The notes beneath the pieces were generated by a model. It was not told where the DNA came from and ran no database searches. It saw nothing but the letters and a program-made list of their open reading frames with translations. The position numbers and the translations under genes are program-made. From positions 41,664,001-41,728,000 of the forward strand of contig NC_086373.1 of the NCBI RefSeq assembly GCF_036588685.1: 64,000 nucleotides of DNA, given 5' to 3'. The DNA comes from Mytilus trossulus. Its lineage: Eukaryota. Positions 3,293-60,613 of the stretch are shown one piece after another; the first letter of the stretch is position 1, and each line of letters opens with the position of its first letter.

Positions 3293-4310
3293 TCATGGTG
3301 AATATCCATTAGACAGTCTTCTTCTACAAATTCTGTGACAATTAACATTGGCACAGTATCTATTTGTTGGACAATCTCCATCACCAAAACAGTCATTTTT
3401 GCAATCAGTTTTTCCTCCTTCCACTGACTGAAAAACTACTCCTGAACCAGAAGTACGACCTGATCCACTACGTCTTGAAGAAACATTGTCTAGTACAACA
3501 CGCCCACCTCGTCTAGAACTGATTGAGTCAAGAATATCGGCACCTGTATGACCAGACCCTCCTCGGCCACTACCAATAGTGTCCAAATGAGAATTTCTGG
3601 ACAGACCCACATTTCTAGCCAGACCAGATGAACCAATTCGTCTAGAGGTGAAATGATCATCATCGTCAGATAAAACTCGGGACAAACCAATTGAAGAGCC
3701 TCTAATTACTCCAGATACAGAGGTCCTGCCACCAACAGAGGCACCAGATAATCCTCTACCGGAAGATGACCCGTGTGTAATGAATTCACTGCCTATTCCA
3801 TGAGATGTTCCAACATTTCTTGATCCTGTTCGTCTATTTGCATCGATAACATCCAGTACAGAAAGAGATCCGTCACTACGACGCCTGTTTATGTTTCTAC
3901 CAACTGTGTTTTCGACCAGTAAAACCTTTTCCACTCCATGTCTATCTAATGCATGCTTATCTGAGGGTGCATATACTGTAAAAATAAATATCTGACAATT
4001 TATGTGATTTTTATGAATTGATTAATTGGAGAAAAAATAATATAGGTGATTTTTTTTTATTAAACAATATAATGATAGCAAGTATTATCGGCAATAAAAG
4101 GACTACACACCATTAGCAAAGGGACGTTGTTGCAAGCAATAGCAGAGACTGTTCGGTTTATAAAATATCAGCTGTTTTAAAGAACATTCTGTGGAAGGAT
4201 ATTCAAATGTTATTTCGAGAAAAAACATACATGTAATGAACGTTTTTCTTACCGGCTACTGTTATTGTGGTCAATGCCATCAACACGAAAATGGTCTGAA
4301 ATTCCATCAT
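3293..4310 (-). CDS. Secreted Gly/Ser/Arg-rich protein with C-terminal 6-Cys WAP-like domain (copy 1, 246 aa)
   Basis: Coding exons 4253-4310 (MMEFQTIFVLMALTTITVA, phase-1 GT donor) and 3293-3975 (TACAG acceptor), joined frame open. C-terminus CKNDCFGDGDCPTNRYCANVNCHRIC. AATAAA at 3235-3240 on the minus strand. Confidence 0.9.
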
Positions 4311-11075: not shown

Positions 11076-11217
11076 GTAAGAAATTATTTAAACAAACGTA
11101 AATATTGAAAAAATATCGTAGATAAACAAAACATTAAGTATGAAAAATAGTCAAGAAATAATTCATTGAAGAAAATGAAAAGCTTAAATTAAGTTTCACA
11201 TACTTAAAGGTACAATG

Positions 11218-11532
11218 AACTCATCATAGATACCAGGACTAAATTTAGTATATACGCCAGACGCGCGTTTTGTCTACAAAAGACTCATCAGTGACGTTCG
11301 AATCCAAAAAACTTAAAAAGGCCAAATAAATTACGAAGTTGAAGAGCATTGAGGACCAAAATTCCTAAAAGTTTTGCCAACTACAGCTAAGGTAATCTAT
11401 GCCTGAGGTCGAAAATCCTTAGTATTTCAAATAATTCATAAATTTGTAAACGGTAAATTTATAAATATAAACTTATCAATGACAATTCATGTCAGCACAA
11501 AAAATACTGACTACTGGGCTTGTAATACCCTC
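11218..11532 (-). mobile_element. Solo retrozyme monomer (variant subfamily) in intron 1 of copy 2
   Basis: Reverse-complement homology to the 357-bp unit; hammerhead at 11254-11297 with GAAA mutated to AAAA. Confidence 0.8.
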
Positions 11533-11765: not shown

Positions 11766-13330
11766 ATGATGAGATTCCAGACCTTTTTCTTTTTGATGGC
11801 ATTGACCACCATGGCAATAGCCGGTAAGTAAACTATTTAACTTGCTTTCTTCAAGTTTACAGACTGTTTTAACGGAAGTGTTTTGGGTGTCAATATACAA
11901 AAAATTAAATACCTTACTATTAACAAATTTCAAAAATATAATTTCAGTACTTATTATTTTATTATTTGTATATTCTTGAAGAAAATTTAACAAAAGGTTT
12001 TCTTTTTGAATTGAATCAGATTTGTCATATGGAGTCTTGTATATCTTACAATACTGTATGGCGTAATCCGTACGTTCACTGTAGCTGTTAACGTCCTAGG
12101 CATTTCATCTATAGGGAATAGCCATCTAATTGGCAAACATATAAGATATCCTTACATTTATAAGAGAGACGAAGGATACCAGAGGGAGAATCAAACTCAT
12201 AGGTGGAAAATAAAAGACTAAGCAACACGAACCCAACCAAACACTAGGGGTGATCGCGGTGCTCTAGAAGGGTTAGCAGATCCTGCTCCATATGTGGCAC
12301 CCCTCATGTTGCTTAAGTCATTATAAATTCAGTAAATAGTCTTATTCAGTAGGTCATATTCGTGAAAAGGGAAAGGTATTGTAGTTACGACATAAGGAAC
12401 ATCCGATAGCATCTGTGAATCCTACATATACACAAGAAATAACTTTTTTTTTTTTTTATATTACTAGAATTCTGAAAGTTATATAAAATGTCAGACCTTA
12501 ATTTTACAGTTTATGCACCAACTGAAAAACATGCATTAGATAGACATGGAGTGGAAAAGGTTTTGCTGGTCGAGAACCAAGATGGAAGAAACATCAACAG
12601 GCGTCGAGGTCGCGAATCTCTTTCTGTACTGGATGTTATTGATGCAGGTAGACGAGCAGGATCAAGAGCTGGAGCTGTTGGAACATCTCATGGAATAGGA
12701 AATGAATTTCTAACACACGGGTCATCAGCCAGTATAGGATTGTCTGGTGGTTCTCTTGGAAGTAGGACCTCTGTATCAAGAGGCACTTTAGCTGGTTTGT
12801 CTCGTGCTTTATCTGACGATGACAGTATCAGTAATTGTCATTATGGGTGTGGAGAAGACAAGTTATGTCGTTTAGGACATAAATGTGTACATGATGGTTG
12901 TAGCAGTTACTGCGTCGAAATTTCTTCTAGCAGGTCATCATCTGGCTTGACCAGAGTTTCAAGTAATGATGGTCATATATCATCTGGCAGCAGAATTGGT
13001 ACATCTGGTTTGGCTAGAAATTTTGATCTCTCTCGCAGTTCTCGTTTGGAAACCATAAGTAGTGGCCGTGGAGTGTCTGGTCATTCGGGTTCTGATATTC
13101 TTGACGCAATCAGCTCTGGACGTGTTGGACTAGACATAGTTGATTCCAGACGCAGTGGATCAGGCCGTATCTCTGGTTCGAGACTCGTTTCTAGGTCAGT
13201 AGTAGGAGGCAAAACTGATTGCAAAAATGACTGTTTTAGTGATGGAGATTGTCCAACGAGCAAATACTGTGCATCTGTAAATTGTCACATGATTTGTAGA
13301 AGACGACCGTCTAAAGGATACACAGGGTGA
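11766..13330 (+). CDS. Secreted Gly/Ser/Arg-rich protein with two 6-Cys WAP-like domains (copy 2, 292 aa)
   Basis: Coding exons 11766-11823 (MMRFQTFFFLMALTTMAIA) and 12510-13330. Internal CHYGCGEDKLCRLGHKCVHDGCSSYC and terminal CKNDCFSDGDCPTSKYCASVNCHMIC. AATAAA 13382-13387. Confidence 0.9.
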
Positions 13331-16300: not shown

Positions 16301-17717
16301 GCCTGAATCTTCACATATGATTAAATATTCTCTACAGTGAAATAAAATCTGAAAGTATGTTTCATACATTGTACCATAAAATAAAATAATAATAGAAGCG
16401 CATCCTAATTGTAAAGCTCTATTATTTTCATGTTATACAAGACAGCATGTAGTTTTCTTACAAATACAAACACGAAATTTTAGTATAAAAAAGTGTTCGG
16501 GTCAGGTAGAGAAGTGATCAAACATGAGACATCGAAGAGTGCGTCTGTAAGCCTTTTACCTGTCTTTTGAATATAGAAATAAGATATTGCATGATAGTTA
16601 ATAAGACAATTATCTATCACACACGTACCAATGTTGAAATTTCAAACTTTAGTTCACAGAACTACCTTCAACAATTATTGAAACCCATACCACATAGTTA
16701 GCTAAACAATAGTTCGTATATCTTTTTATCTTATTGACCGACGATGTGATTTAGATACAATGGATAAGCGTTTATTCTTGAAAAAGAAACCATGAGCCCG
16801 GAGGGCGAATGGTTTGTTTTTCATGAATCAACGCTTATCCACTGTATCTATATCTTAAACTATTGTGTTAATGTCTTTTGAAAATTAACGCCTATTCTTA
16901 ATTAAAAGGTATTGTAAGGGAGTTTAAATAACCATGTAATCGTGTTACACGAACCATTACAGTTAATAAATATCACAATCAAATGGTTAAAAAATTCAAA
17001 TTATAACACAACACGTCAACCAGTAAAGATCTTCATACTTTAAGGCATCTGAATGTTATCTGCTATTACAAAATAAGATATATTGAGTTCGAACTTATTT
17101 CTAATAAAATTGAAAATGGAAATGGAGACTGTGTAAAAGGGAAAACAACCCGACAAAGAACATATATATAGTGCATATCCTAAGTATTTGTCCGAAATTT
17201 CTCACAAAAGCCTACAATGTAATTATAGTAACATTACGATTTTCTAGCATAGAAATTTGCGAATTAACAGTGATAAAATTATGTAGTAAAACAGACGGAA
17301 TCATATTAGATTAATTTATAAAACAAAAAAGGACAAATAAAATGTAGTCATTTTTGTTTCAAACATGTGGAATAGTCAACAATAATTCGATAATGAACGA
17401 CCAAACTCTCTTTTATTACACAAAATATCCACAATAACATACAAAGCAAGAACAAAAACTAGAAAACTAGAGAAAAGGGACAGCAAAGAGAATTCAGGGA
17501 TTCTAACCTTAACAGATAAGTCCGTACCTTATATCACTTATATTAACCATTTTTTTTATCATTATCTTATATTAACCATGAAACCTCGTGGCTACCAATT
17601 CGTACTATACGTTTGCCTATTATGTTTATATAAAGGTACAAGCCATGTTTGTATATTGTACCGATGTATATCATATATTCATTTATGTATATAAAATAGA
17701 CATTTAAATCGTAACCG

Positions 17718-17790
17718 ATTGGTAGCCCAGAGGTTTCGTCAGTTGCACGGTACAGAATTCATGGACAGGTTCGATTCCCAGTGAAGGCAT
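17718..17790 (+). promoter_or_regulatory. tRNA-like Pol III internal promoter (probable SINE head)
   Basis: A box TAGCCCAGAGG 17723-17733; B box GGTTCGATTCCC 17768-17779. Confidence 0.5.
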
Positions 17791-17820
17791 ATAGAAATTA
17801 CAAAAATGTAAGGACAGTTT

Positions 17821-19554
17821 TCACCAGCCCAGTAGTCAGCACTTCGGTGTTGACATGAATATCAATTATATGGTCATTTCTATAAATTTTCTGTTTACAA
17901 AACTTTGAATTTTTCGAAAAACTAAGGATTTTCTTACGTCCAGGAGTAGATTACCTTAGCCGTATTTGGCACAACTTTTAGGAATTTTTGGGTCCTTAAT
18001 GCTCTTCAACTTTGTATTTGTTTGGCATATTAACTGTTTTGATCTGAGCGTCACTGATGAGTCTTATGTAGACGAAACGCGCGTCTGGCGTATTAAATTA
18101 TAATCCTGGTACCTTTGATAACTATTTACACCACTGGGTCGATGCCACTGCTGGTGGACGTTTCGTCCCCGAGGATATCACCAGCCCAGTAGTCAGCACT
18201 TCGGTGTTGACATGAATATCAATTATATGGTCATTTCTATAAATTTTCTGTTTACAAAACTTTTAATTTTTCGAAAAACTAAGGATTTTCTTACGTCCAG
18301 GAGTAGATTACCTTAGCCGTATTTGGCACCTTTTTTCGGAATTTTTGGGTCCTCAATGCTCTTCAACTTTGTATTTGTTTGGCATATTAACTGTTTTGAT
18401 CTGAGCGTCACTGATGAGTCTTATGTAGACGAAACGCGCGTCTGGCGTATTAAATTATAATCCTGGTACCTTTGATAACTATTTACACCACTGGGTCGAT
18501 GCCACTGCTGATGGACGTTTCATCCCCGAGGGTATCACCAGCCCAGTAGTCAGCACTTCGGTGTTGATATGAATATCAATTATATGGTCATTTCTATAAA
18601 TTTTCTGTTTACAAAACTTTTAATTTTTCGAAAAACTAAGGATTTTCGTACGTCCAGGAGTAGATTACCTTAGCCGTATTTGGCACAACTTTTAGGAATT
18701 TTTGGGTCCTCAACGCTCTTCAACTTTGTATTTGTTTGGCATATTAACTGTTTTGATCTGAGCGTCACTGATGAGTCTTATGTAGACGAAACGCGCGTCT
18801 GGCGTATTAAATTATAATCCTGGTACCTTTGATAACTATTTACACCACTGGGTCGATGCCACTGCTGGTGGACGTTTCGTCCCCGAGGGTATCACCAGCC
18901 CAGTAGTCAGCACTTCGGTGTTGACATGAATATCAATTATATGGTCATTTCTATAAATTTTCTGTTTACAAAACTTTTAATTTTTCAAAAAACTAAGGAT
19001 TTTCTTACGTCCAGGAGTAGATTACCTTAGCCGTATTTGGCACAACTTTTAGGATTTTTTAGGTCTTCAATGCTCTTCAACTTTGTATTTGTTTAGCATA
19101 TTAACTGTTTTGATCTGAGCGTCACTGATGAGTCTTATGTAGACGAAACGCGCGTCTGGTGTATTAAATTATAATCCTGGTACCTTTGATAACTATTTAC
19201 ACCACTGGGTCGATGCCACTGCTGGTGGACGTTTCGTCCCCGAGGGTATCACCAGCCCAGTAGTCAGCACTTCGGTGTTGACATGAATATCAATTATATG
19301 GTCATTTCTATAAATTTTCTGTTTACAAAACTTTTAATTTTTCGAAAAACTAAGGATTTTCTTACGTCCAGGAGTAGATTACCTTAGCCGTATTTGGCAC
19401 AACTTTTAGGAATTTTTGGGTCCTCAATGCTCTTCAACTTTGTATTTGTTTAGCATATTAACTGTTTTGGTCTGAGCGTCACTGATGAGTCTTATGTAGA
19501 CGAAACGCGCGTCTGGCGTATTAAATTATAATCCTGGTACCTTTGATAACTATT
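17821..19554 (+). mobile_element. Non-LTR retrozyme array: 357-bp unit x ~4.9, one hammerhead ribozyme per unit
   Basis: Units start at 17821, 18178, 18535, 18892 and 19249 and are near identical. Each contains GCGTCA-CTGATGA-GTCT-TATGT-AGAC-GAAA-CGCGC-GTC-TGGCGT. Confidence 0.9.
18048..18091 (+). ncRNA. Minimal type I hammerhead ribozyme (also at 18405-18448, 18762-18805, 19119-19162, 19476-19519)
   Basis: CUGAUGA and GAAA core; stem II GUCU/AGAC; stem I GCGUCA/UGGCGU; palindromic stem III ACGCGCGU; GUC cleavage triplet ending at 18085. Confidence 0.9.
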
Positions 19555-21341: not shown

Positions 21342-21646
21342 TATACATACAACAATAAACAAATAAACATATTATATCCCAAGGTAGATATGGTAAACAG
21401 TTTTCGCAATTGAAATATATCCTCATACTTTTTATGTTATAATAAAGAATTCGTTTATACCTCTTTTTATAATCTAAGATTTCTATGCTTATACCATTCT
21501 GTTTTATAAAGAAAATCGTTACTTTTCCGTATTGTCTAGCTATCAGCACGTATCCAGCATTAACATAACAAAAACTTAATACAATATTTTATTTTAGAAA
21601 GGATATCAAAAAGTGTTCATAATATAGGATTTCGGTGATAGGCTTT

Positions 21647-22693
21647 TCATGGTGAGTATCCATTAGACGGTCTTCTTCTACAAATCCTGTGACAGTTAAC
21701 AGTGGCACAGTATCTGTTTGTTGGACACTCACCGTCACTAAAACAGTCGTTTTTGCAATCAGTTTTTCCTCCTAACACTGACTGAGAAATTAGTCCTGAA
21801 CCAGAAGTACGACCTGACCCACTACGTCTGGAAGAAACAGTGTCTAGAACAACACGCCCACCTCGTCCAGAACTGATTGCATCAAGAATATCTGCACCTG
21901 AATGACCAGACACTCCATGGACACTACCAATAGTTTCCAAATGAAAATTTCTGGACAGATCCGCATTTCTAGCCAGACCAGATGAACCAATTCGGCCGCC
22001 AGAGGTGAAATGATCATCATCGTCAGATAAACCACGGGACAAACCAATTGAAGAGCCTCTTATGATTCCAGATTTAGAGGTCCTGCCACCAACAAAAGCC
22101 CCAGACAATCCTCTACCGGAAGATGACCCGTGTGTAATAAATTCACTGTCTGTTCCATGAGATGTTCCAACATTTCTTGATCCTGCTCGTCTATTTGCAT
22201 CAATAACATCCAGTACAGAAAGAGATCCTTCACCACGACGCCTGTTTATGTTTCTTCCACCTGTGTGTTCGACCAGTAAAACCTTTTCCACTCCATGTCT
22301 ATCTAAAGCATGCTCATCCGAGGGTGCATATACTGTAAAATAAATATCTGACAATGAATATGATTTTCATGAATTGATTCATTCGAAAACAAATACTGGG
22401 GAATTATTTTTATTTAACAATGCAATGATATAAGGTATTATTGCCAATAAAATAGTTACACACTCTAGGCAAAGGGACGTTGTTTTAAAAAATTGAAGAG
22501 ACTGTTCGATTTTGTAAATATAAGCTGTTTTAAGAACATTCTGTGATAGGATAATCAAATATTATCTACACACTGAAAACACCTTTATTTAATACATTAC
22601 AAATTTTGAGAAAAACACTTGAACATTTTTCTTACCGGCTACTGTTATTGTGGTCAATGTCATCAACACGAAAATGGTCTGGAATCTCATCAT
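21647..22693 (-). CDS. Secreted Gly/Ser/Arg-rich protein with C-terminal 6-Cys WAP-like domain (copy 3, 247 aa)
   Basis: Coding exons 22636-22693 (MMRFQTIFVLMTLTTITVA) and 21647-22332; canonical splice sites; AATAAA 21588-21593 on the minus strand. Confidence 0.9.
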
Positions 22694-26630: not shown

Positions 26631-26700
26631 TGATGAGTCTTATGAGGACGAAACACGCGTCTTGCGTACTAAATTATAATGCTGGTACCTTTGATAACTA
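26631..26700 (+). mobile_element. Retrozyme fragment with broken hammerhead
   Basis: TGATGAGTCTTATGAGGACGAAACACGCGTC...GGTACCTTTGATAACTA; the 5' strand of stem I is missing. Confidence 0.75.
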
Positions 26701-30120: not shown

Positions 30121-31099
30121 ATGCTGAGATTCCAGACCATTTTCTTTTTGATTGCATTGACCACAATGACAGTAGCCGGTAAGTACACTGTCAAATTTGT
30201 GCTTCTGCAAGTTTACAGGCTGTTTTAATAGAAGTGTTAAGGGTGTTAAGATACAAACATCTGAATGCCTTACTATCGATAAATCTTCAAAAAATTACGA
30301 TTTCAGTACTTATAAAGTTTATTTACTGAATTTACATTTTTGTCATTTTTGTTGTTTTTGCATTACTTAATTTGTGAACGTTATATAAAATGTCAGATAT
30401 ATTTATTTTACAGTCTATGCACCCACGGAAAAACATGCATTAGATAGACATGGACTGGAAAGGGTTTTGCTGGTCGAAAACACAGTTGGAAGAAACATAA
30501 ACAGGCGTCGTGGTGAGGGATCTCTTTCTGTACTGGATGTTATTGATGCAAATAGACGAGCAGGATCAAGAGGAGTTGGAACATCTCATGCAATAGGCAG
30601 TGAATTTATTACACACGGGTCATCTTCCGGTAGAGGATTGTCTGGGGCGTCTGTTCGAGGCAGGAACTCTGTATCTGGAATCATTAGAGGCTCTTCAACT
30701 GGTTTGTCTCGTGATTTATCTGACGATGATGATCATTTCACCTCTGGCAGCCGAATTGGTTCATCTGGTCTGGCTAGAAATGTGGATCTGTCTGGAAATT
30801 CACATTTGGAAACTATTGGTAGTGGCCATGGAGTGACTGGTCATTCAGGTGCAGATATTATTGACGCAATCAGTTCTGGACGAGGTGGGCGTGTTGTACT
30901 AGACACCGTTTCTGCCAGACGTAGTGGATCAGCACGTACTTCAGGTTCAGGGTTCGTTTCTCAGTCAGTGGTAGGAGGAAAAACTAATTGCAAAAATGAC
31001 TGTTTTATTGATGGAGATTGTCCAACAAACAGATACTGTGCCACCGTTAACTGTCACAGGATTTGTAGGAGAAGACTGTCTAATGGATACACACCATGA
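30121..31099 (+). CDS. Secreted Gly/Ser/Arg-rich protein with C-terminal 6-Cys WAP-like domain (copy 4, 247 aa)
   Basis: Coding exons 30121-30178 (MLRFQTIFFLIALTTMTVA) and 30414-31099; AATAAA 31152-31157. Confidence 0.9.
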
Positions 31100-33058: not shown

Positions 33059-35018
33059 AACCAGATGCTCCGCAGGGCGTAGCTTTATACGACCGCAGAG
33101 GTTGAACCCTGAACGGTTGGGGCAAGTATGGACACAACATTCAAGCTGGATTCCGCTCTAAATTTGGATTGTGATTAAATAGTTGACACAGCATAGGTTT
33201 CTGACACAGAATGAATGTATTCAAATGAACTTAAATTTTTTGTTTTCTCTTAGAGCAATTCACTATGCTGTTGAATATTAATCCTCTCAAAAAAATGTTT
33301 GAAGAAATTTTCTTTTTATTTATGAAATTTCAAATGAGAAAAATTTAACCCAATTTTTTATTCACATCCCCCTTTCCCTTATTCCAAAACTATGATTTCA
33401 ATTAAAATATTCTAATGGAGTTTGCAACAATTACTACTCATTTAAATACATGATGTAAAAAAAAACTGCTTGTTATCACTGAATGGTAAAGATTATTTAA
33501 ATTTATCAGTTGGTAGTAAAAAGTGAATATACATTGTATATTGTATATAACAAAGAATTAAGTTGATTGTGGACAAAGAAAGATAACTCCAATTAAAAAA
33601 AATTCTTGCAGATATTTCTTGCTTACTATACTGGACAAAGAAAGATAACTCTTAATTAAAAAAAAAATTGCTATTTCACAATATTGTGAAATTAGATATT
33701 TCTTGCCATTGCACAATACTGTGCAATTGAAAAGACTTGCTATTGCACAATACTTAATATAATAATTTTAGATCCTGATTTGGACCAACTTGAAAACTGG
33801 GCCCATAATCAAAAATCTAAGTACATGTTTAGATTCAGCATATCAAAGAGGCCTAAGAATTTAATTTTTGTTAAAATCAAACTTAGTTTAATTTTGGACC
33901 CTTTGCACTTTAATTTAGACCAATTTTAAAACTGGACCAAAAATTAAGAATCTACATACACAGTTAGATTTGGCATATCAAAGAACCCCAATTTTTCAAT
34001 TTTTGATGAAATCAAACAATGTTTAATTTTGGACCCCGATTTGGGCCAACTTGAAAACTGGGCCAATAATCAAAAATCTAAGTACATTTTTAGATTCAGC
34101 ATATCAAAGAACCCCAAGGTTTCAATTTTTGTTAAAATCAAACTAAGTTTAATTTTGGACCCTTTGGACCTTAATGTAGACCAATTTGAAAACGGGACCA
34201 AAAATTAAGAATCTACATACACAGTTAGATTCGGCATATTAAAGAACCCCAATTATTCAATTTTGATGAAATCAAACAAAGTTTAATTTTGGACCCTTTG
34301 GGCCCCTTTTTCCTTAACTGTTGGGACCAAAACTTCCAAAATCAATACCAACCTTCCTTTTATAGTCATAAACCTTGTGTTTAAATTTCATAGATTTCTA
34401 TTTACTTATACTAACGCTATGGTGCGAAAACCAAGAAAAATGCTTATTTGGGTCCCTTTTTGGCCCCTTAATTCCTAAACTGTTGGGACCGAAACTCCCA
34501 AAATCAATACCAACCTTCCTTTTGTGGTCATAAACATTGTGTTTAAATTTCATAGATTTCTATTTACTTTAACTAAAGTTATTGTGCGAAAACCAAGAAT
34601 AATGCTTATTTGGGCCCTTTTTTGGCCCCTTATTCCTAAACTGTTGAAAATAAAACTCCCAAAATCAATCCCAACCTTTATTTTGTGGTTATAAACCTTG
34701 TGTCAAAATTTCATAGATTTCTATTAATTTAAACTAAAGTTATAGTGCGAAAACCAAGAAAATGCTTATTTGGGCCCTTTTTGACCCCTAATTCCTAAAA
34801 TGTTGGGACCAAAACTCCCAAAATCAATACCAGCCTTCCTTTTATGGTCATAAACCTTGTGTTAAAATTTCATAGATTTCTATTCACTTTTACTAAAGTT
34901 AGAGTGCGAAAACTAAAAGTATTCGGACGACGACGACGACGACGACGACGACAACGACGACGACGACGACGCCAACGTGATAGCAATATACGACGAAAAT
35001 TTTGCGGTCGTATAAAAA
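33059..35018 (+). mobile_element. Non-autonomous Helentron-associated element (HINE/DINE-1-like) with internal tandem repeats
   Basis: Subterminal IR TTTATACGACCGCA (33084-33097) / TGCGGTCGTATAAA (35003-35016); 3' stem-loop; (GAC)n at 34926-34970; ~261-bp and ~161-bp internal arrays. Confidence 0.8.
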
Positions 35019-39891: not shown

Positions 39892-42477
39892 TTGTAAGAT
39901 ATCAAAATATTTTGATTCATATTTTTTTTGATTTTTTTTTTGGTCTTAAATGACTTTTTTATCAGTTTAAATCTTTCAATGAAACTAATTAAATCGACTG
40001 AATAATCTTTCATCAGATGAACCTGTGGTTTGAGGCAAAAATTGGTCCTTATCGGACCTACTCCTTTGTAAACAAAATAAGGCATGCGTTTCGTTTACAA
40101 AGACTCATGTAAACATCAGACATTCCGACAGACAGCATTCAGAGAGGTCAAACTTATAAGTTGTATTATAATACAAGCACTCAGTAATGGCAAAGTATTA
40201 TGTATAGGGAAACATTAGTAAAATTCGAAATATTTGTAACCCTCACTGTGCAATTTGTGTTGCCATACACACTTTTGATTTTAATCATTACGGCATGCTA
40301 AGAAGGTCTAGTGCATACGGAATCCGTATGAGAGTTTTATATACCACTACTTAGGTTTTAAAGCTAAAATATACTACTGATATAGTATATGTTTCCTAGA
40401 AGAGAAACACATATGTGACCGCTTTTTTTTTATTCAAACCTGGATTCCTTTGATAAGGAACATTGGTGAACAAGGACATTACTAAGCTCACTTACTTCAT
40501 GGACAGATTTATTCGAACTAAAATATGATTGGATTAAAATCATCCAGAAGATAACAGATGAACAGCAAACTTGCATCTTCCAAACACTCAATGGCGCCGG
40601 CCCATTTTTTATGACTTGTCATCAATCAAAGTGATGGATATCACTCATGGAAAGATTAGAACAGTAGTTTGAATTATTTCATATTCAGGTATGGTGGGGA
40701 AAAATGAACATTTATAAAACACTATTGCTGAAAATTGCATTTACAGCAGGTCTTTAGAAGGAAACTTGCTTTTCCAGTATGTGAATAAAGGTGCTCAAAT
40801 TAAATTATATGGGTCTCTAAATTTGCACAATTTTATTTAAACTGCAGTTTATATCTAATCAAAATTATGTTGCAGGTTCTGAACATGTTTCAAAAAAACA
40901 AAAAATGCAAAAATTCTTCTAGTAAATGTTACCAAATAGCCTTGTAAGACATAAATTTAGACCAACAGCTAAAAGCTTTAAAGTGCCAACAAAAATAATC
41001 TAAAAAATGTTGTTTTGGGGCATTTTGTAAGTTGAAACAGAGGTTATATGGCATTGAAAATTAAAAGTTTTAGAGTGCCTTTTGATCAAATTTTAATGTA
41101 TTTTTCAACACAGGGCATTTTCAATTCTATTTTTCAACGTAAACTAATTAAAAAACTAATGTTATTGAAATGTGGATTCTTTCTTGATTGCAAAAATATA
41201 TATTTACTTCTAATAAAAATTAAAATGACTAAAATAGACATAATGATTGATGGGAAATAAACTAATAAACAATGTTTTTTTATAATTAAAAGTTTATAAA
41301 TTTTAAAACTGTTTCAAGCCAATTCCTGATAAACTAGTGAACTAATCTAAATTGTTGATTAATTACAGATGATTATTGGAAATTTATCAAGTACATTATA
41401 GGCCATACTTGAATACCTTTTAAATATTCATATTTATATTCATATTTCATTTTTTTAAGATCTTGCTAATCCATTAATCATTTATCTTTCAGATATAATT
41501 TACAGAATTACTTTATGTAATGTAGATCAAAAGTAATTGGCAATAAATAAATCTATCATCCTTATAAATATCAAAGAAATAATACACACATTTGTGTAAT
41601 CAATTATGATTTTAAATACTTGTGTATTAAGAATTAGATGCATATTGGAGTGGTCTACAATTATGTAAGACTGATGTAGATAGGTAATGTGGTCAATTTG
41701 ATTGGCATTTTAGGAGGTGGGGCATTGTAATTAAAAGTCCACCTTGTCTCTGATTGTTTAGTGATAATGACAGTGGTCAATCATACTAGTTGAATCAATA
41801 CCCACTTACCTAATCAAAATGTTTTTAAAAAAGCCTGCACATCAACACACATAATGACATACATTCTTGAATGAACTGCTCCAATAATATACCCAGTTTT
41901 TTCAGTTTATTTGTGTATTATGTGCACATACATGAGAACTATAGGGAACTATATTTTAGTGTGAATACATTTATTAACAGTAGCTAACCTGTCCTGTTGT
42001 TAGGGTGGGCGGTGCCTAAGTAAAGATTTAGAACAAGTTCTAATCTTTCAAAAAACTGGAATAAATGGATATTTACATGTCTGAAACACGACGTCTAAAC
42101 ACAGAAAAGTTGCAAACGTTCGTGTATTACTTTAATGCAAAGCAGGATATGCTTACCATTTCCTTCACATTTGAGGTCATCCGAATATTAGCTGGGTGAC
42201 AGTGTATGCCTTTCGTGTGTGTTAGTGTAAATTTTTGTTATTAAACATTGTTTGTTTAGAATTGTAGTTCAATGATTGCCTCAACTAATCTGTATTTCTT
42301 TTTACCGGTAATCAATTGTGTTGTAACGTTTGATTGGTCGTAGGTTTTGTCTTCTTTTATACAAAAAGGTCCTTGGTTTCATCATAAAAAAATCAACAGT
42401 GACCACTGTAGACAACAATGTTTTTTTTTAAGTTAGTGCAAAATCTTAAGTAATTGCAAAATCGAACTATTTTAATC

Positions 42478-42552
42478 AGAGCGTCACTGATGAGTCTTAT
42501 CTAGACGAAACGTGCGTCTGTTGTATTAAATAATAATCATGGTACCTTTGGT
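42478..42552 (+). mobile_element. Retrozyme fragment with hammerhead core
   Basis: GCGTCACTGATGAGTCTTATCTAGACGAAACGTGCGTC; 3' strand of stem I degenerate. Confidence 0.75.
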
Positions 42553-43120
42553 AGCAATTTACTGGTAGCGCGAAGAGCAAATCCATTACTTAATGAAATT
42601 GGAACATAAAATTCAAAAACGTTGCTTCAAATTTGGCATGTTTGGCGGGACCTATAGTTGTTAATTTCTGTGTCATTTATTCTAATTAGCAATTATACCA
42701 GATTTTTTTTTTATAACATTCTAAATATTCAGTTATCTTTGTGTAGAACATCTTTAGTTTATTTTGAAACACGATAATAATTTGTTCGTTGAATTGTTGA
42801 GAAAATGTTGCTGGGTATTGTGTAAGTATGAGTTTCCATGTGTTTAGTCTGGTAGTCTGGTGTCACTAAACTATTTATCACATACAACACATATGCGAGG
42901 TTGTTTTCTCTAGTATGAGTTCTCATGTGTCTTTCATATAGTTTCTTGTGTTTACCACATACATTACGTGTGCGAGGTGTCACTTAATTGTCTACCACAT
43001 ACAACACGTATGCAAGGTTTTTACAAGTATGAGTTCACATGTGTCTATCATAGAAGTCTGGTGTCACTAAACTGTTTACCACATACATCACATGTGCGAG
43101 GTTTTCACTAGTATGTGTTA

Positions 43121-44689
43121 TCATGTGTTTATTATAGTGTCTGGTGTCTCTAAACTGTCTACCACATACACAGCATTGGTAAGATATTCACCTGCATGAG
43201 TCAGTTTCATGTGTAAAAGACAGGTACTATTGAGGCTAAACTCTTTCCCACAAACACTACATTTATAAGGTTTCTCATTTGTTAGAGTATTATGAGTACA
43301 ACTTTGAGTTTTCATGTGTATACGGACGGTGCTCTTGTCCCTAAACCCTTTTCCACATACATCACATGTGTAAGGTTTTTCATCTGTATGAGTTATCATG
43401 TGTATATGAAGGGATCTGATACTTCTAAAACCTTTACCACATACATCACATTTGTAAGGTGTTTCACCTGTATGTATTCTAATGTGTGTGATTAAATCCT
43501 GATTTGATTTAAACCCTTTACCACATGCATCACAAATGTAAGGTCTGTGTTGCTCACCAGTATGAGTTCTCATGTGTCTAAGACATGAACTGTTCTTGCC
43601 AAACTCCTTACCACATACATCGCATTTGTAAGGCTTATCTCCTGTATGAGTTCTCATGTGTCTAAGAAAAGAACTATTGTTGCCAAACTCTTTACCACAC
43701 ACATCGCATTGGTAAGGTTTATCACAAGTTTGAATTTTCGTGTGTGTATCAAAGTTACATTTGTCGCTTAATCCTTTATCACACGCTTCTCTGGTATTCA
43801 GATTTTCATCAGTATGAGTTTTCATGTGTCTATTATGGGAAGTGATGTCACTAAACCCTTTTTCACATACATCACATTTGTAAAATTCGTCACCAGTATG
43901 AGTTCGCATGTGTTTGTGGAAATCACTGTTGTTGTCAAATTCTCTACCACATATATCACATGTGTAACGTTTATTATATTTATAACCAGTATGAATTGTC
44001 ATGTGTTTATTGCAGTCACTTTTTCTACCAAAATGTTTACCACAAACATCACATGTGTAAGGTTTTTCACCGGTATGCATTCTTGTGTGTGCCGTTAAGG
44101 AACTGCAGATATTGAACCCTTTACCACATACATCACATATGAAAGGTTTTACACTAGTATGAGTTTTTGTATGTTTCTTATATGATTTATAGTAACCAAA
44201 TCCTTTACCACAAAAATCACATGTGTAAGGTTTTTCACGCTTATCACCTGTGTGAATTCTCATGTGTCTTATCAAGTTACTTTTGTGATTAAACCTTTGA
44301 CCACATAATTCACATGTTGTGTTACGTTTTTCATCAGTATGATTTCTTTTATGTTTTGTACAGTTTCTGGAGTTAGTAAACCCTTGACCACATACATCAC
44401 ATGTATAAAGCTTATTACCAGTATGAGTTTGTGTGTGTTTTGTTAAGGTTTTATCGAACCTAAAACTTTTACCACACACATCACATTTATAAGGTTTATC
44501 CTGTTTATCAACACTATGAATAATCATGTGTTGAAGGAAGCCTTTTTTGTCACTAAATCCTTTAACACACACATCACATGTGTAAGGTTTATCAGCAGTA
44601 TGGGTCCTTGTATGTATCGTATGAGATCTGAAGTTACTGACATCTATACCACAGACATCACATGTGTAAGTTTTTTCACCCGTATCCAT
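43121..44689 (-). CDS. Poly-C2H2 zinc-finger protein (~15 canonical + 2 degenerate fingers), copy A, 522 aa
   Basis: Repeated CxxC-x12-HxxxH with TGEKPY-type linkers; splice acceptor TTTTCAG at 44763; no effector domain visible. Confidence 0.85.
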   Translation of the reverse strand: MDTGEKTYTCDVCGIDVSNFRSHTIHTRTHTADKPYTCDVCVKGFSDKKGFLQHMIIHSVDKQDKPYKCDVCGKSFRFDKTLTKHTQTHTGNKLYTCDVCGQGFTNSRNCTKHKRNHTDEKRNTTCELCGQRFNHKSNLIRHMRIHTGDKREKPYTCDFCGKGFGYYKSYKKHTKTHTSVKPFICDVCGKGFNICSSLTAHTRMHTGEKPYTCDVCGKHFGRKSDCNKHMTIHTGYKYNKRYTCDICGREFDNNSDFHKHMRTHTGDEFYKCDVCEKGFSDITSHNRHMKTHTDENLNTREACDKGLSDKCNFDTHTKIQTCDKPYQCDVCGKEFGNNSSFLRHMRTHTGDKPYKCDVCGKEFGKNSSCLRHMRTHTGEQHRPYICDACGKGFKSNQDLITHIRIHTGETPYKCDVCGKGFRSIRSLHIHMITHTDEKPYTCDVCGKGFRDKSTVRIHMKTQSCTHNTLTNEKPYKCSVCGKEFSLNSTCLLHMKLTHAGEYLTNAVYVVDSLETPDTIINT

Positions 44690-45139
44690 TCTGAAGAGTG
44701 ATTTTTTTTTAATTGGCGTGTACGTCTTACAGACTGGTCATGTATCACATAAATGTAGATATCTGAAAACACGAAAAAATATCATTTTAACTGCAGTTAA
44801 AACAGATAAACAGAATAAACGTGTATACAAATATAAACTGCAACTGCCTGCGTTTATTTCATAAATAGAGTAACATAGCTATATTTTGTATAATGTCAGT
44901 AGCATGGGTTCGAATGAACAAAAAATTTGCGAAAGCAAATTTACAGATCTAACATTGTTGGGTTGATGTTTAGACGAGTTATATATATATATATATATAT
45001 GCAATATGCAAACATATTAAAACATAGATAGGACTAGTGATTCCGATATCGCTGATCTGTATTATCGACAATTTGTATGTATTTTTACTTTTATTGTACC
45101 GCCCTTGCGTTCCATACATTTATATAAAAGAGCCACGAC

Positions 45140-46230
45140 CACAGGTATTTGGGGAATGGACCCCCTTCTTTTTTGGACCTCACTAAAATAAAATTTTGGC
45201 GGTTTTTTTATTCATTTACAATCTTCTACAATGTATAAACATATATCAAGTCTCAACAATCCATTGCTAGTCGATTACAATAATTTTTTACTATCCATAC
45301 GAGCCCCAAGTGAAAAAAGAAGAAGGTAATTACCTTTGATGAATGACCTACTTTCACTTTGGAGGATCAGGTCAGGAAATCGATAAAAAAATCATATAAA
45401 AACTCACTTACTTTTCATATAAATTACATCCCTAGATTCCTGAGACATTTTTCTCCACGTTTAAATAGGTCACATGGTGATCTGCGGAGGTTTTGTGTTG
45501 TTTTCTGAGTTTGTTCTACAATTGTCGTCCGTTTGAACCTCAATTCACGGAAGTGAAAATACAGCGACATCTGTGTGGTCTTTTGCTATGTTGAAATAAC
45601 TCCGTTTGACTAAACTGTTCCCTGTTAACTGTTTTTTCTTTAATTTGTAAAAGACCGGCAAAACTACTTTTTTCGAATATCTCTTACCTTTTCTTATAGC
45701 TACATTGCATTCGGAACCCATCTATAAAACTGGTAAACAAAAAAAGGGAACAGTTTAGTCATACGGAGTTATTTCAACATAGCAAAAGACCACACAGATG
45801 TCGCTGTATTTTCACTTCCGTGAATCGAGGTTCAAACGGACGACAATTGTAGAACAAACTCAGAAAACAAGACACAAAACCTCCGCAGATCACCATGTGA
45901 CCTATTTAAACGTGGAGAAAAATGTCTCAGGAATCTAGGGATGTAATTTATATGAAAAGTAAGTGAGTTTTTATATGATTTTTTTATCGATTTCCTGACC
46001 TGATCCTCCAAAGTGAAAGTAGGTCATTCATCGAAGGTAATTACCTTCTTCTTTTTTCACTTGGGACTCGTATGGATAGTAAAAAAATTATTGTAATCGA
46101 CTAGCAATGGATTGTTGAGACTTGATATATGTTTATACATTGTAGAAAATTGTAAATGAATAAAAAAACACCAAAATTTTATTTTAGTGAGGTCCAAAAA
46201 AAAGGGGGGTCCATTCCCCAAATACCTGTG
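45140..46230. mobile_element. Foldback element, ~485-bp inverted arms, 8-bp TSD
   Basis: TSD GCCACGAC (45132-45139, 46231-46238); arms 45140-45623 and 45745-46230; empty site at ~57563. Confidence 0.9.
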
Positions 46231-48856: not shown

Positions 48857-51771
48857 ACTGAAATTATAGTTTCACTTCACCTTGTCAAAGAAAAACAAAG
48901 AATACCAAAAGGACATTCAAACTCATTACTTGAAAATAAACTGACCACGTCATGGCTAAAAAGTTGAAAATAAACTGAAATTCAAACTCCAATGTCAAAA
49001 ATAAAGTGTCAAGTTGTTCTTTTTTATTTAAACCTATTATAATTATTTGTATGTATGCATTTATAGGACTGTGACACTGAAGTGGGAATGAAATTTTAAG
49101 AGCTAGAATAAATCCATACCATAGATCAAATTGAAGAACAGATTAGGAAGAGAGGAAAGGATGACTTAATTTCAAGAGCAGATGTAAGTAAAAATATTAG
49201 AGTATATTATTAAGTTGCCAACAGAACTATAATATGATTGAAATAGTTATCAAGGGTACCAGGATAATAATTTAGTTTTGAAAAATGGAGGTTAAATCAT
49301 TCTCTTATATTTATCCTGTTGAATAGGTAAAAAATGGTCAATTTAAAAAAAAAATATTCATAATATTACTATTAGGATAGAATAGGAAAAACAGGCTGCA
49401 GTTCTCAGAAATCAAGGATTTTGTTTTATAATATAAAAAAAAACTTGCATGCTTGTTTGCTCTATATATTGTTCCCTTTGATTTATTTGTCTTTTGATGT
49501 ATACATTTGTACAAGGTGAAAAGTATTGTCTTTTTAACTACAATTTGTATTTTTCTTTTGTAAAAATCTTTTTCAAGAAGCTTGTTTAATGTTTTTTAAT
49601 AAACATGATCTAAGAATAAGTGACTGTTGCATACAATTGTACATGAAGGTTTAATTTTTTCATTTCAGGATACAAAAGTTCACCTGACAACTGAAAAGAA
49701 ACTGCACACCAAGAGCCTTTATCATTCAAAAGAAGATTGTTCCGCAATGAAAAATTCCTGTATGATAGGAGATGGACTAACAATTTCTATTTGTTGAGGA
49801 TAAAAATCATAAAATTTTATAATTGTATTTTTTGTTTGCTTTAGTGAGACTTAGAAAAATAAATTATTGAACTAATTTGAATAGATTGTATGTTATGTTT
49901 AACTAAGACTGGATCAGAAAAAAACAAAAGAACCAGACTCTAAGTTGTATAAAAGGTGGAAGGTCCATAAAACGTTAAAAAAATCAAACACTTGACTACA
50001 TAAACAATCAAAAGGAACGGGAAAAAAAGTCATATTCCTGACTTGGTACAGGCTTTTCCTTTATAAATAATGGAGGATTAAACTTTGTCTAATTGTTTAC
50101 AGACTTTTCAAAACTTGGTCCAATTGTTTACAGACTTTACTGAACTTGGTCGTATTGTTTACAAACTTTTCTTTGGTCTCCAGGAAAAATAAAATATGTA
50201 AACCTATTATTGTTAATATTATTATTATCATTACTGAAGTTTTCCAGCTTTAATATACTATATAGACAAGTCAAAATGTTTTATGATGGTAAAAATCATT
50301 GCAAGAACATGAAAGCAGAAATATTCACGTGTATTATATATTCTACAATACAGTGTGGACTAATCAACCTGTAGTGCTGTACCACACAAGTAGTTCCTGT
50401 GAAATCAAAGTACTAGTAGGTTTACCGTTGGAAGGTCTAAACACAATATATTTCTAAACATATAACATCTAAACACTTGTTAAAATCTAAACATGTTTAG
50501 ATGCTAAACGCGTTTCAAAACGTACACAGAAAAAGTGTTTAGATAGGTGTTTAGGATCTAAATACTGTTTTTGTAATACATAAACCGAGTGGTCGCTGCC
50601 CTTCCCTTTTAATTTCTATTTTACTCCAAACTGATCGTGTCGTAGATTTATCTATAAGTCAAATATACATACATATATATACTATTAATGACAACAATAG
50701 AGCAGTATGCAGAAAGTCTATAATTATTATGTATGCATGGTACATTTTTAGGCAGCTAAGCTGTCTTATGCGAGCACCCTTGTGTTCTACCCAATTAAAT
50801 GCTGAAATATGTGCCATAATGATTGTTATTATCTAGCATGATCATGTTATGTTATTTATAACTAATTGGACAGCTTTTTCATACTTTTAATTCTTGATTA
50901 CAAAAAATATGACCAGAAAAACCTTAAATGATCGTCGATTTATCCCAAAGTTTTGAAGTTGCACATAGGAAGAAGGGCACATTAGGAATCTTTATGTAGT
51001 TTATTATCCCCTGAGATTTTGGCTAAGCTGTCAAAGAACAAATGTATGAAATGTTTAATCGCCGAAAATCTCTAAAGACGAGTAGTTAAGATTTCCAAAA
51101 TGGCAAAAGTCGTAGGAATATTGTTCGTCGTCAACTGCGTCAGTAGTCTTAAAATAAGTTCCACTGTTCATCATGTTCATGCTGTTGGCGGCAATTTTAA
51201 CTTATTAGACGACATTTTTGTATCTTTTCAATTTGGTGGCAGGGGTTCAAATTAGCGGTTGTCCGAGGTCTGCGACCTTCCACTTTTGCAGTCGGACTTT
51301 CGACTTGGTAAATAGCTACGCTCGACATGCCCGACTTTAGAGGAAATAAAAAAAAAACTTTGCAAATCTTTTTACAAGTCTCCTAAAAAACGATCTCAAA
51401 ACTTTTGTTTTGCATAATTATTCATGACAGCGACGTTCATTTGGTTCAACCGCTAGTTTTATACAGAAAATCGCCGACAAATAATGTGTAAATTCGAGTA
51501 AAATCGTATCTGACTTGAACCTTTAGTGAAATTGTAAGGGGGGCCCAACAAATCAGTAGGGTAAAATTAGGATTGTTACAACAGTTTTCGCCCTTCGTTT
51601 AACGTTAGACAGAAAATGTATCCGCAAAACAACGTTTCCAATACGTACCAGTAATTTGTTTACTCGACTGTGACCAATTAATATACACGTCAATTGAATT
51701 GCATAATGATCATTCTAACTAGTTCATCGAAACTAAAATGACATCACGACAGGAATCTATTGAAAAACGCC

Positions 51772-52134
51772 CATATATCATCTGGCAGCAGAATTATAAC
51801 ATCTGACCTGAGAAGAAATTATGATATCTCTCGCAGTTCTTATTTGGAAACCATAGGTAGTGGCCGTGGAGTGTCTTGTTATTTCGGTTTTTATATTCTA
51901 GACGCATTCAGCTCTGGACGAGGTGTGCGTGTTGAACTAGACACTGTTTCTGCCAGACGTAGTGTATCAGGTCGTACTTCTGGTTCAGGACTCGTTTCTC
52001 GGTCAGTATTAGATGGTAAAACTGATTGCAAAAATGACTGTTTTAGTGATGGAGATTGTCTAACGATTAAAAATTGTGCTTCTCTTAATTGTCACATGAT
52101 TTTTAGAAGAAGACCGTCTAATTGCACAGGATGA
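51772..52134 (+). pseudogene. 3' fragment of a copy-2-type gene (copy 5)
   Basis: Homology starts abruptly at HISSGSRI. The last Cys is lost (HMIF). No signal exon or acceptor nearby. Similarity to the copy 2 3' flank continues to ~52310. Confidence 0.85.
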
Positions 52135-53417
52135 AAAGCCTTTCTCCGAAATCCAGACTTTGAAATCTTATTTATATCTTTTATACAATAAAATTTTGCA
52201 ATCATTTTGTGTTACTAGTGAGAATTTCGTAAATACATCATAAAATATTGATAATTCAGGCTGAAAAACAAACTTTTAAGTAATCAGAAAAAAATGCAAC
52301 AACAAACAGACATATTCCCGTTTGAATGCTTTTATACTAGTAAATTTGGGGCCCTATATAGCTTGTTGTTTGGTGTGAGCCAAGGCTTCGTGTTGAAGGC
52401 GGTACATTGACATATAATGGTTTGCTTTGATAAATTGTTATTTGGATGGAGAGTTGTCTCATTGGCACTCATACCACATCTTCATATATATATATAAAAA
52501 CGTAAACATAAAATAACTACTAGCAAAAAAAATAAAGAAAAATAGAAAGTTAAATGGCAAGCAAAACCTCCTGCTTATATAACCTCGTTTCCGTCTAAAA
52601 TTGAAGTGACCGCAATTGTGTTCAGTCTTAATATTTGAATGTAAGTAGTATTTGATGATGGTTGCTAGTGAACACGGATGCGGCTACTTTCATTTTTGAC
52701 AAAACCATATAAAAGTGACATATTACATGTATTTTGTCATATTTGATAAATTTGACATATTTAAGCTTGGATTTGATCGTCTTAAATGACTACATCAGTT
52801 TAAATCTTTCAATTAATTAATTTAATCGACTGAAGAATCCATAATCCTTAATCTTTCATCAGATGAACCTGTAGTTTGAGGCCAACATTGTAAAGAAAGA
52901 CTCGCTCATGTTACCATCAGACATTCCGACAAAAAAAGAATTCAGAGAGTTCAAACTAATTATCATTTTGATACAGGCACTCATTAATGGCAAAGGATTA
53001 TGAACAGGGAAACATTTATATAATTGGCCATATTTTTAACACTCACTGTGCAATTTGTGTTGCCATACACACTTTTAATTTTAATCATTATGACACATAT
53101 GTCAGCGCTTTTTATTCAAACCACTATTCCCTTGATAAGGAACATTGGTGAACAAGGATGTTACTAAGCTCACATCCTTCAATGAAGTTCATGAAGTCAA
53201 TGAAATTCATAGCGAAATTATTTTATATTTATAAAAGAAGACCTCGAATGGTTATTAATTACCGAGGTGAAATAAATATAATTTTCAATTTTCTTTAAAT
53301 AATTCATCTAGGTAACCAGTAAATTTTACATAATCCTATCTGAACCAGTAACATGCAGAGTTATCGAACGTTATAATGACTGTAATAGTTGCATATGTAT
53401 ATTTTTGGTATTATATA

Positions 53418-53585
53418 AACTCATCATAGATACCATAAACTTTATATATACGCCAGACGCGCGTTTCGTCTACAAAAGAATCATCAGTGACGCTCGAATC
53501 AACATATGTTAACAGGCCAAATAAAGTACGAATTTAGTTGAAGACCATTGAGGAACAACAATTCATAAATGTTTTGCAAAATACA
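53418..53585 (-). mobile_element. Retrozyme fragment (variant subfamily) with hammerhead
   Basis: Minus strand GCGTCACTGATGATTCTTTTGTAGACGAAACGCGCGTCTGGCG at ~53450-53493; first stem II pair broken. Confidence 0.75.
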
Positions 53586-55827: not shown

Positions 55828-56036
55828 TCTGAAGAGTGATCTTTTTTTAAATTGGCGTGTACGTCTTACAGACTGGTCATGTATCACATAAATGTAGATA
55901 TCTGAAAACACGAAAAAATATCATTTTAATTGCAGTTAAAACAGATAAACAGAATAAACGTGTTTACAAATATAAAAACTGCAACTGCCTGCGTTTATTT
56001 CATAAATAGAGTAACATAGCTATATTTTGTATAATG

Positions 56037-60400: not shown

Positions 60401-60613
60401 GCAAGCCTCGCGCTTTAAATATTAAAATTTATCTGTCTCCAGTGGATAAATGTCGTAATATACTTGTTGCAGTTGTGGAATCTATAATATATCTTTCAGT
60501 TGGGCATAAAATGCGAATTGTAATAATTCATCTTTGAATTAGCTGATTTTGCAGTTATTGAACTTATTCTCATCTTTATTTTCTTTTGATTAGACTCAAA
60601 GCAACTGACAGAA

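What the first reader, a model, noticed from the sequence alone, without database searches (positions are those of the whole stretch)
17821..19554. Young retrozyme array with five hammerheads sitting between two convergent genes
Seen: exact 357-bp period, few substitutions and five intact catalytic cores. Established: minimal type I hammerheads with palindromic stem III occur in Penelope-like elements and in metazoan non-LTR retrozymes (reported for Mytilus galloprovincialis), can cleave as dimers and give circular monomer RNAs. Inference: transcription would release four 357-nt monomers. The array is sense to copy 2, so readthrough could feed it and be cleaved by it. The class is known but usually annotated as plain satellite.
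Basis: partly seen in the sequence, partly recalled or inferred. Interest (0 to 1): 0.75.

Follow-up and report, generated by a model that had tools for sequence, protein, structure and literature searches.

The report
Mussel retrozyme array with fixed end
This is a real five-hammerhead tandem repeat that most likely belongs to the mobile RNA-circle family already published for mussels (retrozymes); the one addition is that many copies of the family stop about 41 bases past the ribozyme's predicted cut site, which likely marks where a borrowed Penelope-type reverse transcriptase starts copying.

Summary
Observation confirmed: 17821-19554 is 4.86 x 357 bp. It has five intact type I hammerhead cores, and the units differ by 1.3-3.4%. 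The flanking proteins are Mytilus WAP-like paralogues, so this is most likely one locus of the mussel non-LTR retrozyme family. Monomer cleavage and circular RNAs of that family are published (PMC7229834). Corrections: the hammerhead is canonical, not minimal; a dimer is possible but not required. Read-through from the upstream gene is unsupported: an AATAAA lies 52 nt after its stop, and the array is 4.5 kb away. Added here: 11 of 14 copies with a visible 3' end stop 39-44 nt after the cut site, while 5' ends vary. In public contigs the same position is the commonest listed loose end (772 and 547 contigs). This pattern fits target-primed reverse transcription from a fixed internal site, as shown for a lizard Penelope-like element (PMC11167929); a circle or uncut multimer would then be the template. 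No autonomous partner, empty allele or transcript of this locus was found. This scan has noted similar arrays in other animals. Verdict: known family, modest mechanistic clue.

The parts
17821..19554 (+). Retrozyme array, 4.86 head-to-tail units of 357 bp (units start 17821, 18178, 18535, 18892, 19249; the last ends at unit position 306)
18048..18091 (+). Type I hammerhead 1, predicted cut after 18085
18405..18448 (+). Type I hammerhead 2, predicted cut after 18442
18762..18805 (+). Type I hammerhead 3, predicted cut after 18799
19119..19162 (+). Type I hammerhead 4, predicted cut after 19156 (one G-C to G-U change in stem I)
19476..19519 (+). Type I hammerhead 5, predicted cut after 19513
18086..18442 (+). 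First of four predicted 357-nt monomers (others 18443-18799, 18800-19156, 19157-19513)
   Evidence: release is inferred
19514..19554 (+). 41-nt segment from the last cut site to the family's recurrent 3' end (inferred start of reverse transcription at its 3' edge)
   Evidence: (equivalent place 18126)
18127..18211 (+). Short AC-rich linker, GC-rich stem-loop (18133-18190) and UUCG hairpin (18192-18211) just 3' of the recurrent end; repeated at each unit junction; candidate RT docking site
   Evidence: fold (z -2.3 on the sense strand for this domain); outer-stem pairing probability 0.70-0.98 in the four circles at 37 C; function inferred
19228..19255 (-). Degenerate hammerhead-like core on the opposite strand (one core mismatch, no stem III loop, stem II not closed); weak
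   Evidence: 674 of 20000 shuffles give such a hit; not scored by Rfam at E<=10
12476..13330 (+). Last exon of the upstream Gly/Ser/Arg-rich WAP-like gene (copy 2); AATAAA at 13382
21647..22366 (-). Last exon of the downstream WAP-like paralogue (copy 3); AATAAA on the minus strand at 21588-21593
17723..17778 (+). A-box/B-box-like (Pol III, tRNA-like) motif just upstream of the array; not a tRNA by ARAGORN
11210..11523 (-). Older dispersed near-monomer copy, second subfamily, same 3' end
26631..26700 (+). 5'-truncated copy, same 3' end
42465..42562 (+). 5'-truncated copy, same 3' end
49241..49274 (-). 34-nt copy of only the segment between cut site and recurrent 3' end
53414..53584 (-). 5'-truncated copy, second subfamily, same 3' end

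Best explanation
This is a tandem array of five intact type I hammerhead motifs, most likely one insertion of the Mytilus non-LTR retrozyme family, and likely pasted in by a borrowed Penelope-like reverse transcriptase that starts at a fixed site about 41 nt after the cut site. Shown here: the array, the cores, the genus of the neighbouring genes, the high copy number, the common 3' end and the variable 5' ends of the family. Shown by others for the M. galloprovincialis family: self-cleavage of a single repeat, RtcB circularisation in vitro and abundant circles in tissues. Inferred steps: (1) some genomic array was transcribed, cut to 357-nt monomers and ligated into circles; (2) a PLE RT/endonuclease bound the GC-rich stem-loop, nicked AT-rich DNA and began cDNA at +41; (3) a cut linear monomer has only 41 nt upstream of that site, so longer insertions need a circle or an uncut multimer; about 4.9 rounds on one template would give this array; (4) the units then diverged by about 1.15% each. 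This locus is most likely a passenger between two genes, not a device that cuts their transcripts.
For: Array and cores. Mytilus: all named hits of the flanking protein are Mytilus, best 97% to M. trossulus. Match to the published family: 350-390-bp repeats, about 5000 type I HHRs, two similar HHR families; two 3'-flank subfamilies are visible; GC 39%. High copy: 101172 and 58192 contigs laid in two DNA data sets, depth in the unit far above the flanks. Fixed 3' end: 11 of 14 copies with a visible 3' end stop at unit position about 304-309, 5' ends scattered. In one search the loose end at 18126 is the largest listed row in X1 (772 contigs) and X2 (547), with about 250-nt loose parts that disagree (agreement 0.38-0.39, AT-rich). 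Summed depth rises towards 18126 and falls 3- to 22-fold after it in 4 of 4 runs. Precedent: the anole PLE RT initiates inside its RNA, downstream of the HHR, in an AC-rich stem-loop and nicks AT-rich DNA (PMC11167929); no TSD or poly(A) tail is seen at this array. One founder: all five units share letters at 17880, 18027, 18029 and 18036 where most laid contigs differ.
Against: No autonomous PLE with this terminus was found; no PLE ORF was recognised among the window's ORFs by reading (only five were scanned with Pfam). The published mussel sequences (MN642551-76; supplement) could not be read, so identity to that family is not tested base by base. Rfam scores are 1-3 bits under the gathering score. 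RNAfold puts the active fold about 7 kcal/mol above the minimum, and circular monomer 2, the one tested, is no more stable than shuffles (z +0.25), against the 'highly self-paired circle' description. In Xenopus 8 of 9 predicted retrozyme dimers did not cleave in vitro. 3 of 14 copies do not end at the common site. Units 4 and 5 share a change at position 204, which one pass round one circle would not produce, so later DNA-level duplication or conversion is possible. The offset differs from the anole element (about 85-92 nt after its cut site, calculated). No PLE-type inverted head or extra tail was seen at this array. RNA contigs mostly carry family-majority letters, not this array's.
Confidence: 0.7

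Rival explanations
1. One monomer (a PLE terminal-repeat remnant) was inserted and then amplified locally as a satellite by unequal crossing-over; no circle was copied round and round.
For: Proposed for vertebrate retrozymes. Shared change in adjacent units 4 and 5. One-founder pattern fits this too.
Against: Exact period with no indels and mostly private changes (18 of 19 variable columns). The array's 3' end is the family's insertion end, and tandem joints are common across the family (table 5), which suggests arrays arrive ready-made.
Confidence: 0.15
2. The fixed 3' end is the natural end of a linear transcript copied by a LINE RT, or the terminus of a DNA rolling-circle (Helitron-type) element, not an internal PLE start.
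For: A fixed 3' end with 5' truncation is generic for target-primed elements (established knowledge). No partner element was identified.
Against: No poly(A), simple-repeat tail or TSD at the array. Tandem units read straight through the site. Type I HHR plus tandem layout is the PLE pattern. Helitron termini were not tested.
Confidence: 0.1
3. The array is fed by read-through from gene copy 2 and acts as a co-opted terminator or cutter between the convergent genes.
For: The array is sense to copy 2. Read-through is the published guess for retrozyme transcription in general (PMC7761336).
Against: AATAAA 52 nt after the stop and 11 more in the 4.5 kb before the array. Eight family pieces in 64 kb make a position between two genes unremarkable; intergenic enrichment is the norm in Xenopus.
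Confidence: 0.05
4. The unit descends from a viroid-like RNA with hammerheads in both polarities; the minus-strand motif is a decayed second ribozyme or a lock on the plus-strand one.
For: Minus-strand core-like motif with the same 13-nt spacer; core-to-rest duplex -24.3 kcal/mol, reached by 34 of 2000 shuffles.
Against: Post hoc; 674 of 20000 shuffles give such a motif and 611 of 5000 reach the alignment score. Rfam does not score it. Lock pairing probability is at most 0.21, and 0.00 in three of four circles.
Confidence: 0.04

Closest known systems
Mytilus galloprovincialis non-LTR retrozyme (Cervera & de la Pena 2020, PMC7229834)
   Same: Genus; unit length inside 350-390 bp; type I HHR once per unit; low GC; non-coding; thousands of copies; two HHR subfamilies.
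   Different: Nothing shown to differ. Sequence identity to MN642551-76 could not be tested. The text read does not describe a fixed 3' end or 5' truncation.
Vertebrate non-LTR retrozymes as PLE derivatives (Li, Clavereau & Pollet 2026, 10.64898/2026.07.22.740005)
   Same: Tandem type I HHR units, few repeats, intergenic, proposed PLE dependence.
   Different: That work rests on co-occurrence and pLTR similarity in Xenopus, has no mollusc, and does not map junctions. Here the link rests on insertion ends; no homologous pLTR was found.
Poseidon PLE of Anolis carolinensis (PAc; Frangieh et al. 2024, PMC11167929)
   Same: HHR followed by a fixed downstream end in an AC-rich stem-loop context; AT-rich targets; tandem copies.
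   Different: PAc encodes RT and endonuclease, has two start sites about 85-92 nt after the cut and a protein-assisted HHR; this unit is non-coding and shows one dominant end at +41.
Minimal HHRs in PLE pseudo-LTRs (PMC4209133)
   Same: Type I, palindromic stem III region, dimer-capable.
   Different: Those have long stem II (6-8 bp), short stem I and often an extra base after A9; this one has the canonical 6/4/2-bp layout.
Schistosoma Sm-alpha SINE-like repeats and newt satellite 2
   Same: Tandem repeats with canonical type I HHR (PMC6765202 passages).
   Different: Those carry their own promoters; this unit has seven T4+ runs and no full A/B-box pair was found inside it.

Membership tests
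Metazoan non-LTR retrozyme | Head-to-tail repeats of 150-450 bp | tested here: met
   357 bp x 4.86
Metazoan non-LTR retrozyme | Canonical type I HHR in every unit (at least two consecutive) | tested here: met
   5 of 5
Metazoan non-LTR retrozyme | Low GC (<50%), non-coding, no LTR layout | tested here: met
   GC 0.39; longest stop-to-stop frame 64 aa; PBS and PPT were not searched for separately
Metazoan non-LTR retrozyme | Dispersed, multi-copy family | tested here: met
   7 more pieces in the window, 5 metagenome loci, tens of thousands of contigs
Metazoan non-LTR retrozyme | Self-cleavage of this sequence | not testable with these tools
   published for a M. galloprovincialis repeat; active fold is not the MFE here
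Metazoan non-LTR retrozyme | Expression as linear and circular monomers | tested here: inconclusive
   family sequence is in two RNA runs' contigs, but contigs cannot show circles, strand or locus
Metazoan non-LTR retrozyme | Stable, highly self-paired circle | tested here: inconclusive
   MFE -72 to -79 kcal/mol, but z +0.25 against 100 shuffles for monomer 2; only the GC domain stands out
M. galloprovincialis retrozyme family | Sequence identity to the deposited circles MN642551-76 | not testable with these tools
   supplement unreadable; records not held
Non-autonomous PLE derivative | Fixed 3' end with 5' truncation | tested here: met
Non-autonomous PLE derivative | Homology to the pLTR of an autonomous PLE | not testable with these tools
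   no host genome held; two 3-kb RNA contigs with partial units could not be read
Non-autonomous PLE derivative | Inverted 5' head or 30-40-bp optional tail | tested here: inconclusive
   none at this array; these features are optional in PLEs
PLE minimal HHR (min-HHR) | Long stem II, short stem I, no or tiny loop 3, extra base after A9 | tested here: not met
   6-bp stem I, 4-bp stem II, 4-nt loop 3, no extra base

The most novel reading that the evidence does not exclude
Mussel retrozymes carry a dedicated landing site for a Penelope-like reverse transcriptase: the GC-rich stem-loop positions cDNA synthesis 41 nt after the hammerhead cut. Because that site sits near the 5' end of a cut monomer, only the ligated circle (or an uncut multimer) can be copied in full, which makes circularisation a required step and gives a genomic footprint that names the mobilising enzyme of animal retrozymes.
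Probability: 0.4. Interest if true: 0.55.

Novelty: already known. Interest (0 to 1): 0.3.

Why it matters
The locus itself is one of thousands of a published family. The recurrent 3' end matters modestly: how animal retrozymes are reverse-transcribed is an open question, and the 2020 review says their repeats show no conserved motif that points to the partner (PMC7761336). A fixed end at +41 turns that into a direct test (find the Mytilus PLE with the same end; prime its RT on circle versus linear monomer). It would also explain why the circle is needed.

Tried and rejected
Host genome not held, so no genome-wide count, empty-site check or PLE search. Pattern scans found nothing in viral contigs or genome contigs. 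TSD search: best direct match is an 8-mer that does not touch either junction; rejected. 'Lock' pairing of the antisense-like motif with the hammerhead: not predicted in circles. Second ribozyme on the minus strand: no Rfam hit at E<=10 in 18820-19100. Pol III feeding from the upstream A/B-box-like motif: a T4 run sits at the array edge and seven T4+ runs lie in each unit, so Pol III would likely stop before the first core; ARAGORN finds no tRNA. RNA contigs of X19 and X20 have essentially no cover at 17686-17811; lack of cover in contigs of small runs is not evidence of absence and is not counted. No empty allele appeared among the listed loose ends (1986 rows not shown). A rough p-value for end clustering left out the three misses and is not used. 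In one search the local aligner ran on to positions 311, 316 and 324 for L004, L001 and one L003 copy; their ends were set from BLAST (L004, L003) and by eye (L001). L loci were selected for holding the core, so their ends must lie beyond position 265. Bacterial promoter scan was irrelevant. Earlier-finding look-ups by place and sequence were empty.

Full report
Observation. The array is as described: 17821-19554, period 357, 4.9 copies, 97% matches, no indels. Rfam Hammerhead_1 matches five times on the + strand at 31-33 bits, E about 1e-4 to 3e-5, just under the gathering score of 34. The catalytic core and stems II and III are identical in all five units. C17 lies at 18085, 18442, 18799, 19156 and 19513, so cleavage at all five would free four 357-nt RNAs. 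Units differ by 1.3-3.4% pairwise, or 1.15% from the column majority. No target-site duplication touches the junctions.

Context. The flanking exons (12476-13330 on +, 21647-22366 on -) belong to a local cluster of Gly/Ser/Arg-rich proteins with a weak C-terminal WAP match. All named homologues are Mytilus, the best 97% identical to an M. trossulus protein. The genes converge on the array but end 4.5 kb and 2.1 kb away. Each has an AATAAA about 50 nt past its stop, and 12 AATAAA lie on + between copy 2 and the array. Read-through is therefore not excluded but has nothing in its favour beyond orientation. Seven more fragments of the same family lie in the 64 kb, so a position between two genes is unremarkable.

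Known family. Cervera and de la Pena 2020 (PMC7229834; parts 1-4 of 6 read; supplement not readable) report about 5000 type I hammerheads in M. galloprovincialis, in two similar families, in repeats of 350-390 bp. They show co-transcriptional cleavage of a cloned repeat at about 0.1/min, abundant circles on northern blots, and RtcB ligation. Genus, unit length, GC of 39% and the two subfamilies seen match. I could not compare sequences with their deposits. By the definitions in PMC4209133 (parts 1-2 of 4 read) the motif is canonical, not minimal. The 8-nt palindrome allows dimer pairing (-13.3 kcal/mol), but the published mussel repeat cut without being built as a dimer. Caution on activity: RNAfold places the active fold 7 kcal/mol above the minimum (it ignores tertiary contacts), and 8 of 9 predicted Xenopus dimers did not cleave (10.64898/2026.07.22.740005; parts 1-3 of 5 read; supplements closed).

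What the tools added. The copies have a polarity. Of 14 copies with a visible 3' end (8 in the window, 6 pieces in L001, L003, L004 and L005; L002 ends inside the repeat), 11 stop at unit position about 304-309, that is 39-44 nt after the cut site, in both subfamilies. The other three, all decayed or partial, do not. The 5' ends are scattered. Laying public contigs on the left flank plus unit 1 gave the same result at scale. The loose end at 18126 (+41) is the largest listed row in both DNA data sets (772 and 547 contigs; 16 in one RNA run; not among the rows shown for the other). Its loose parts are long, AT-rich and disagree with each other. Summed depth climbs towards 18126 and drops after it in 4 of 4 runs. 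Depth there is not a copy number, counts were incomplete for X1 and X2, most rows were not shown, and the runs may be other Mytilus species. All five units share letters where most laid contigs differ, so they likely come from one founder. The RNA contigs mostly carry the majority letters, so nothing shows that this locus is transcribed.

Mechanism. A fixed 3' end with variable 5' ends is the mark of target-primed reverse transcription (established knowledge). In the one PLE studied in vitro, the RT starts inside its RNA, downstream of the hammerhead, in an AC-rich stem-loop, on AT-rich targets, and genomic ends fall on those sites (PMC11167929; parts 1-2 of 4 read). Here the common end is followed by a short AC-rich linker and the only strongly folded part of the unit (z -2.3; outer stem probability 0.70-0.98). 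I infer that a PLE protein docks there and starts at +41. A cut linear monomer has only 41 nt upstream of that point, so anything longer must be copied from a circle or an uncut multimer. The 34-nt copy at 49241-49274 is what a linear monomer would give, though plain truncation explains it too. Against this: no partner PLE was found, the offset differs from the lizard element, no inverted head or extra tail is present, and the change shared by units 4 and 5 points to some later DNA-level exchange.

Novelty. The family, its cleavage and its circles are published, and PLE dependence has been proposed. I did not find the fixed end of mussel retrozymes described in eight literature searches or in term look-ups in the two key papers; unseen supplements and figures may show it. 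PMC8557442, PMC7761336 and PMC6765202 were seen as passages only. Earlier notes of this scan report similar arrays and PLE-type ends in other animals; one gave the lead to the 2026 preprint.

Side findings. A hammerhead-like core on the minus strand is borderline (about 2-12% of shuffles, depending on the test) and has no Rfam support. An A/B-box-like motif just upstream is the only such match in the window, but T-runs argue against Pol III feeding the array.

Verdict. Observation confirmed; interpretation partly supported; already known family; interest 0.3, owed to the testable fixed-end clue.

Noticed in passing
window 17723-17778 (+): Only A-box/B-box-like pair in the 64-kb window (both strands) lies 43 nt upstream of the array, inside a moderately repeated flank (depth); possibly a tRNA-derived SINE head into which the array inserted.
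   Followed up: partly
window 19228-19255 (-), repeated at each unit junction: Degenerate hammerhead-like core on the opposite strand with the same 13-nt spacer as the sense ribozyme; borderline against shuffles.
   Followed up: yes
table 8, X20 record 28 and X19 record 16: RNA contigs of 3327 and 3170 nt hold part of the unit near one end (unit 5-171; unit 252-354); candidates for an autonomous Penelope-like partner or for mRNAs with an inserted copy; sequences could not be read.
   Followed up: no
table 7, place 17821: Many contigs (367 in X2, median loose length 255) match only a short way into the preceding GC-rich stem and then diverge, suggesting frequent 5' truncation after about one round, within the stem.
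   Followed up: no
window 3293-4021, 12476-13330, 21647-22366, 30389-31099, 51742-52134: Cluster of five Mytilus-specific Gly/Ser/Arg-rich paralogues with a C-terminal WAP-like Cys domain in alternating orientation; copy 2 carries an extra internal Cys-rich module.
   Followed up: partly
window 43121-44737, 54259-55920, 60590-61879: C2H2 zinc-finger genes; the first two are a recent 96-98% duplicate 11.1 kb apart.
   Followed up: partly
window 33763-34913: Adjacent 135/261-bp and 162-bp tandem repeats ending near a GAC microsatellite; resembles a Helitron/MITE-type mussel repeat (recalled, not tested).
   Followed up: no
window 45186-46185: Long inverted repeat (arms 93-99% complementary, about 115-nt loop), MITE-like.
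   Followed up: no
window 56153-57353: 325-bp near-identical tandem (99%) with a third partial copy; a decayed hammerhead-like fragment lies at about 56985-57050 between them.
   Followed up: no
L004 1-227: Mussel-like retrozyme sequence joined to what look like bacterial genes in a marine metagenome contig, probably a chimeric assembly; the join is at the family's usual 3' end.
   Followed up: no
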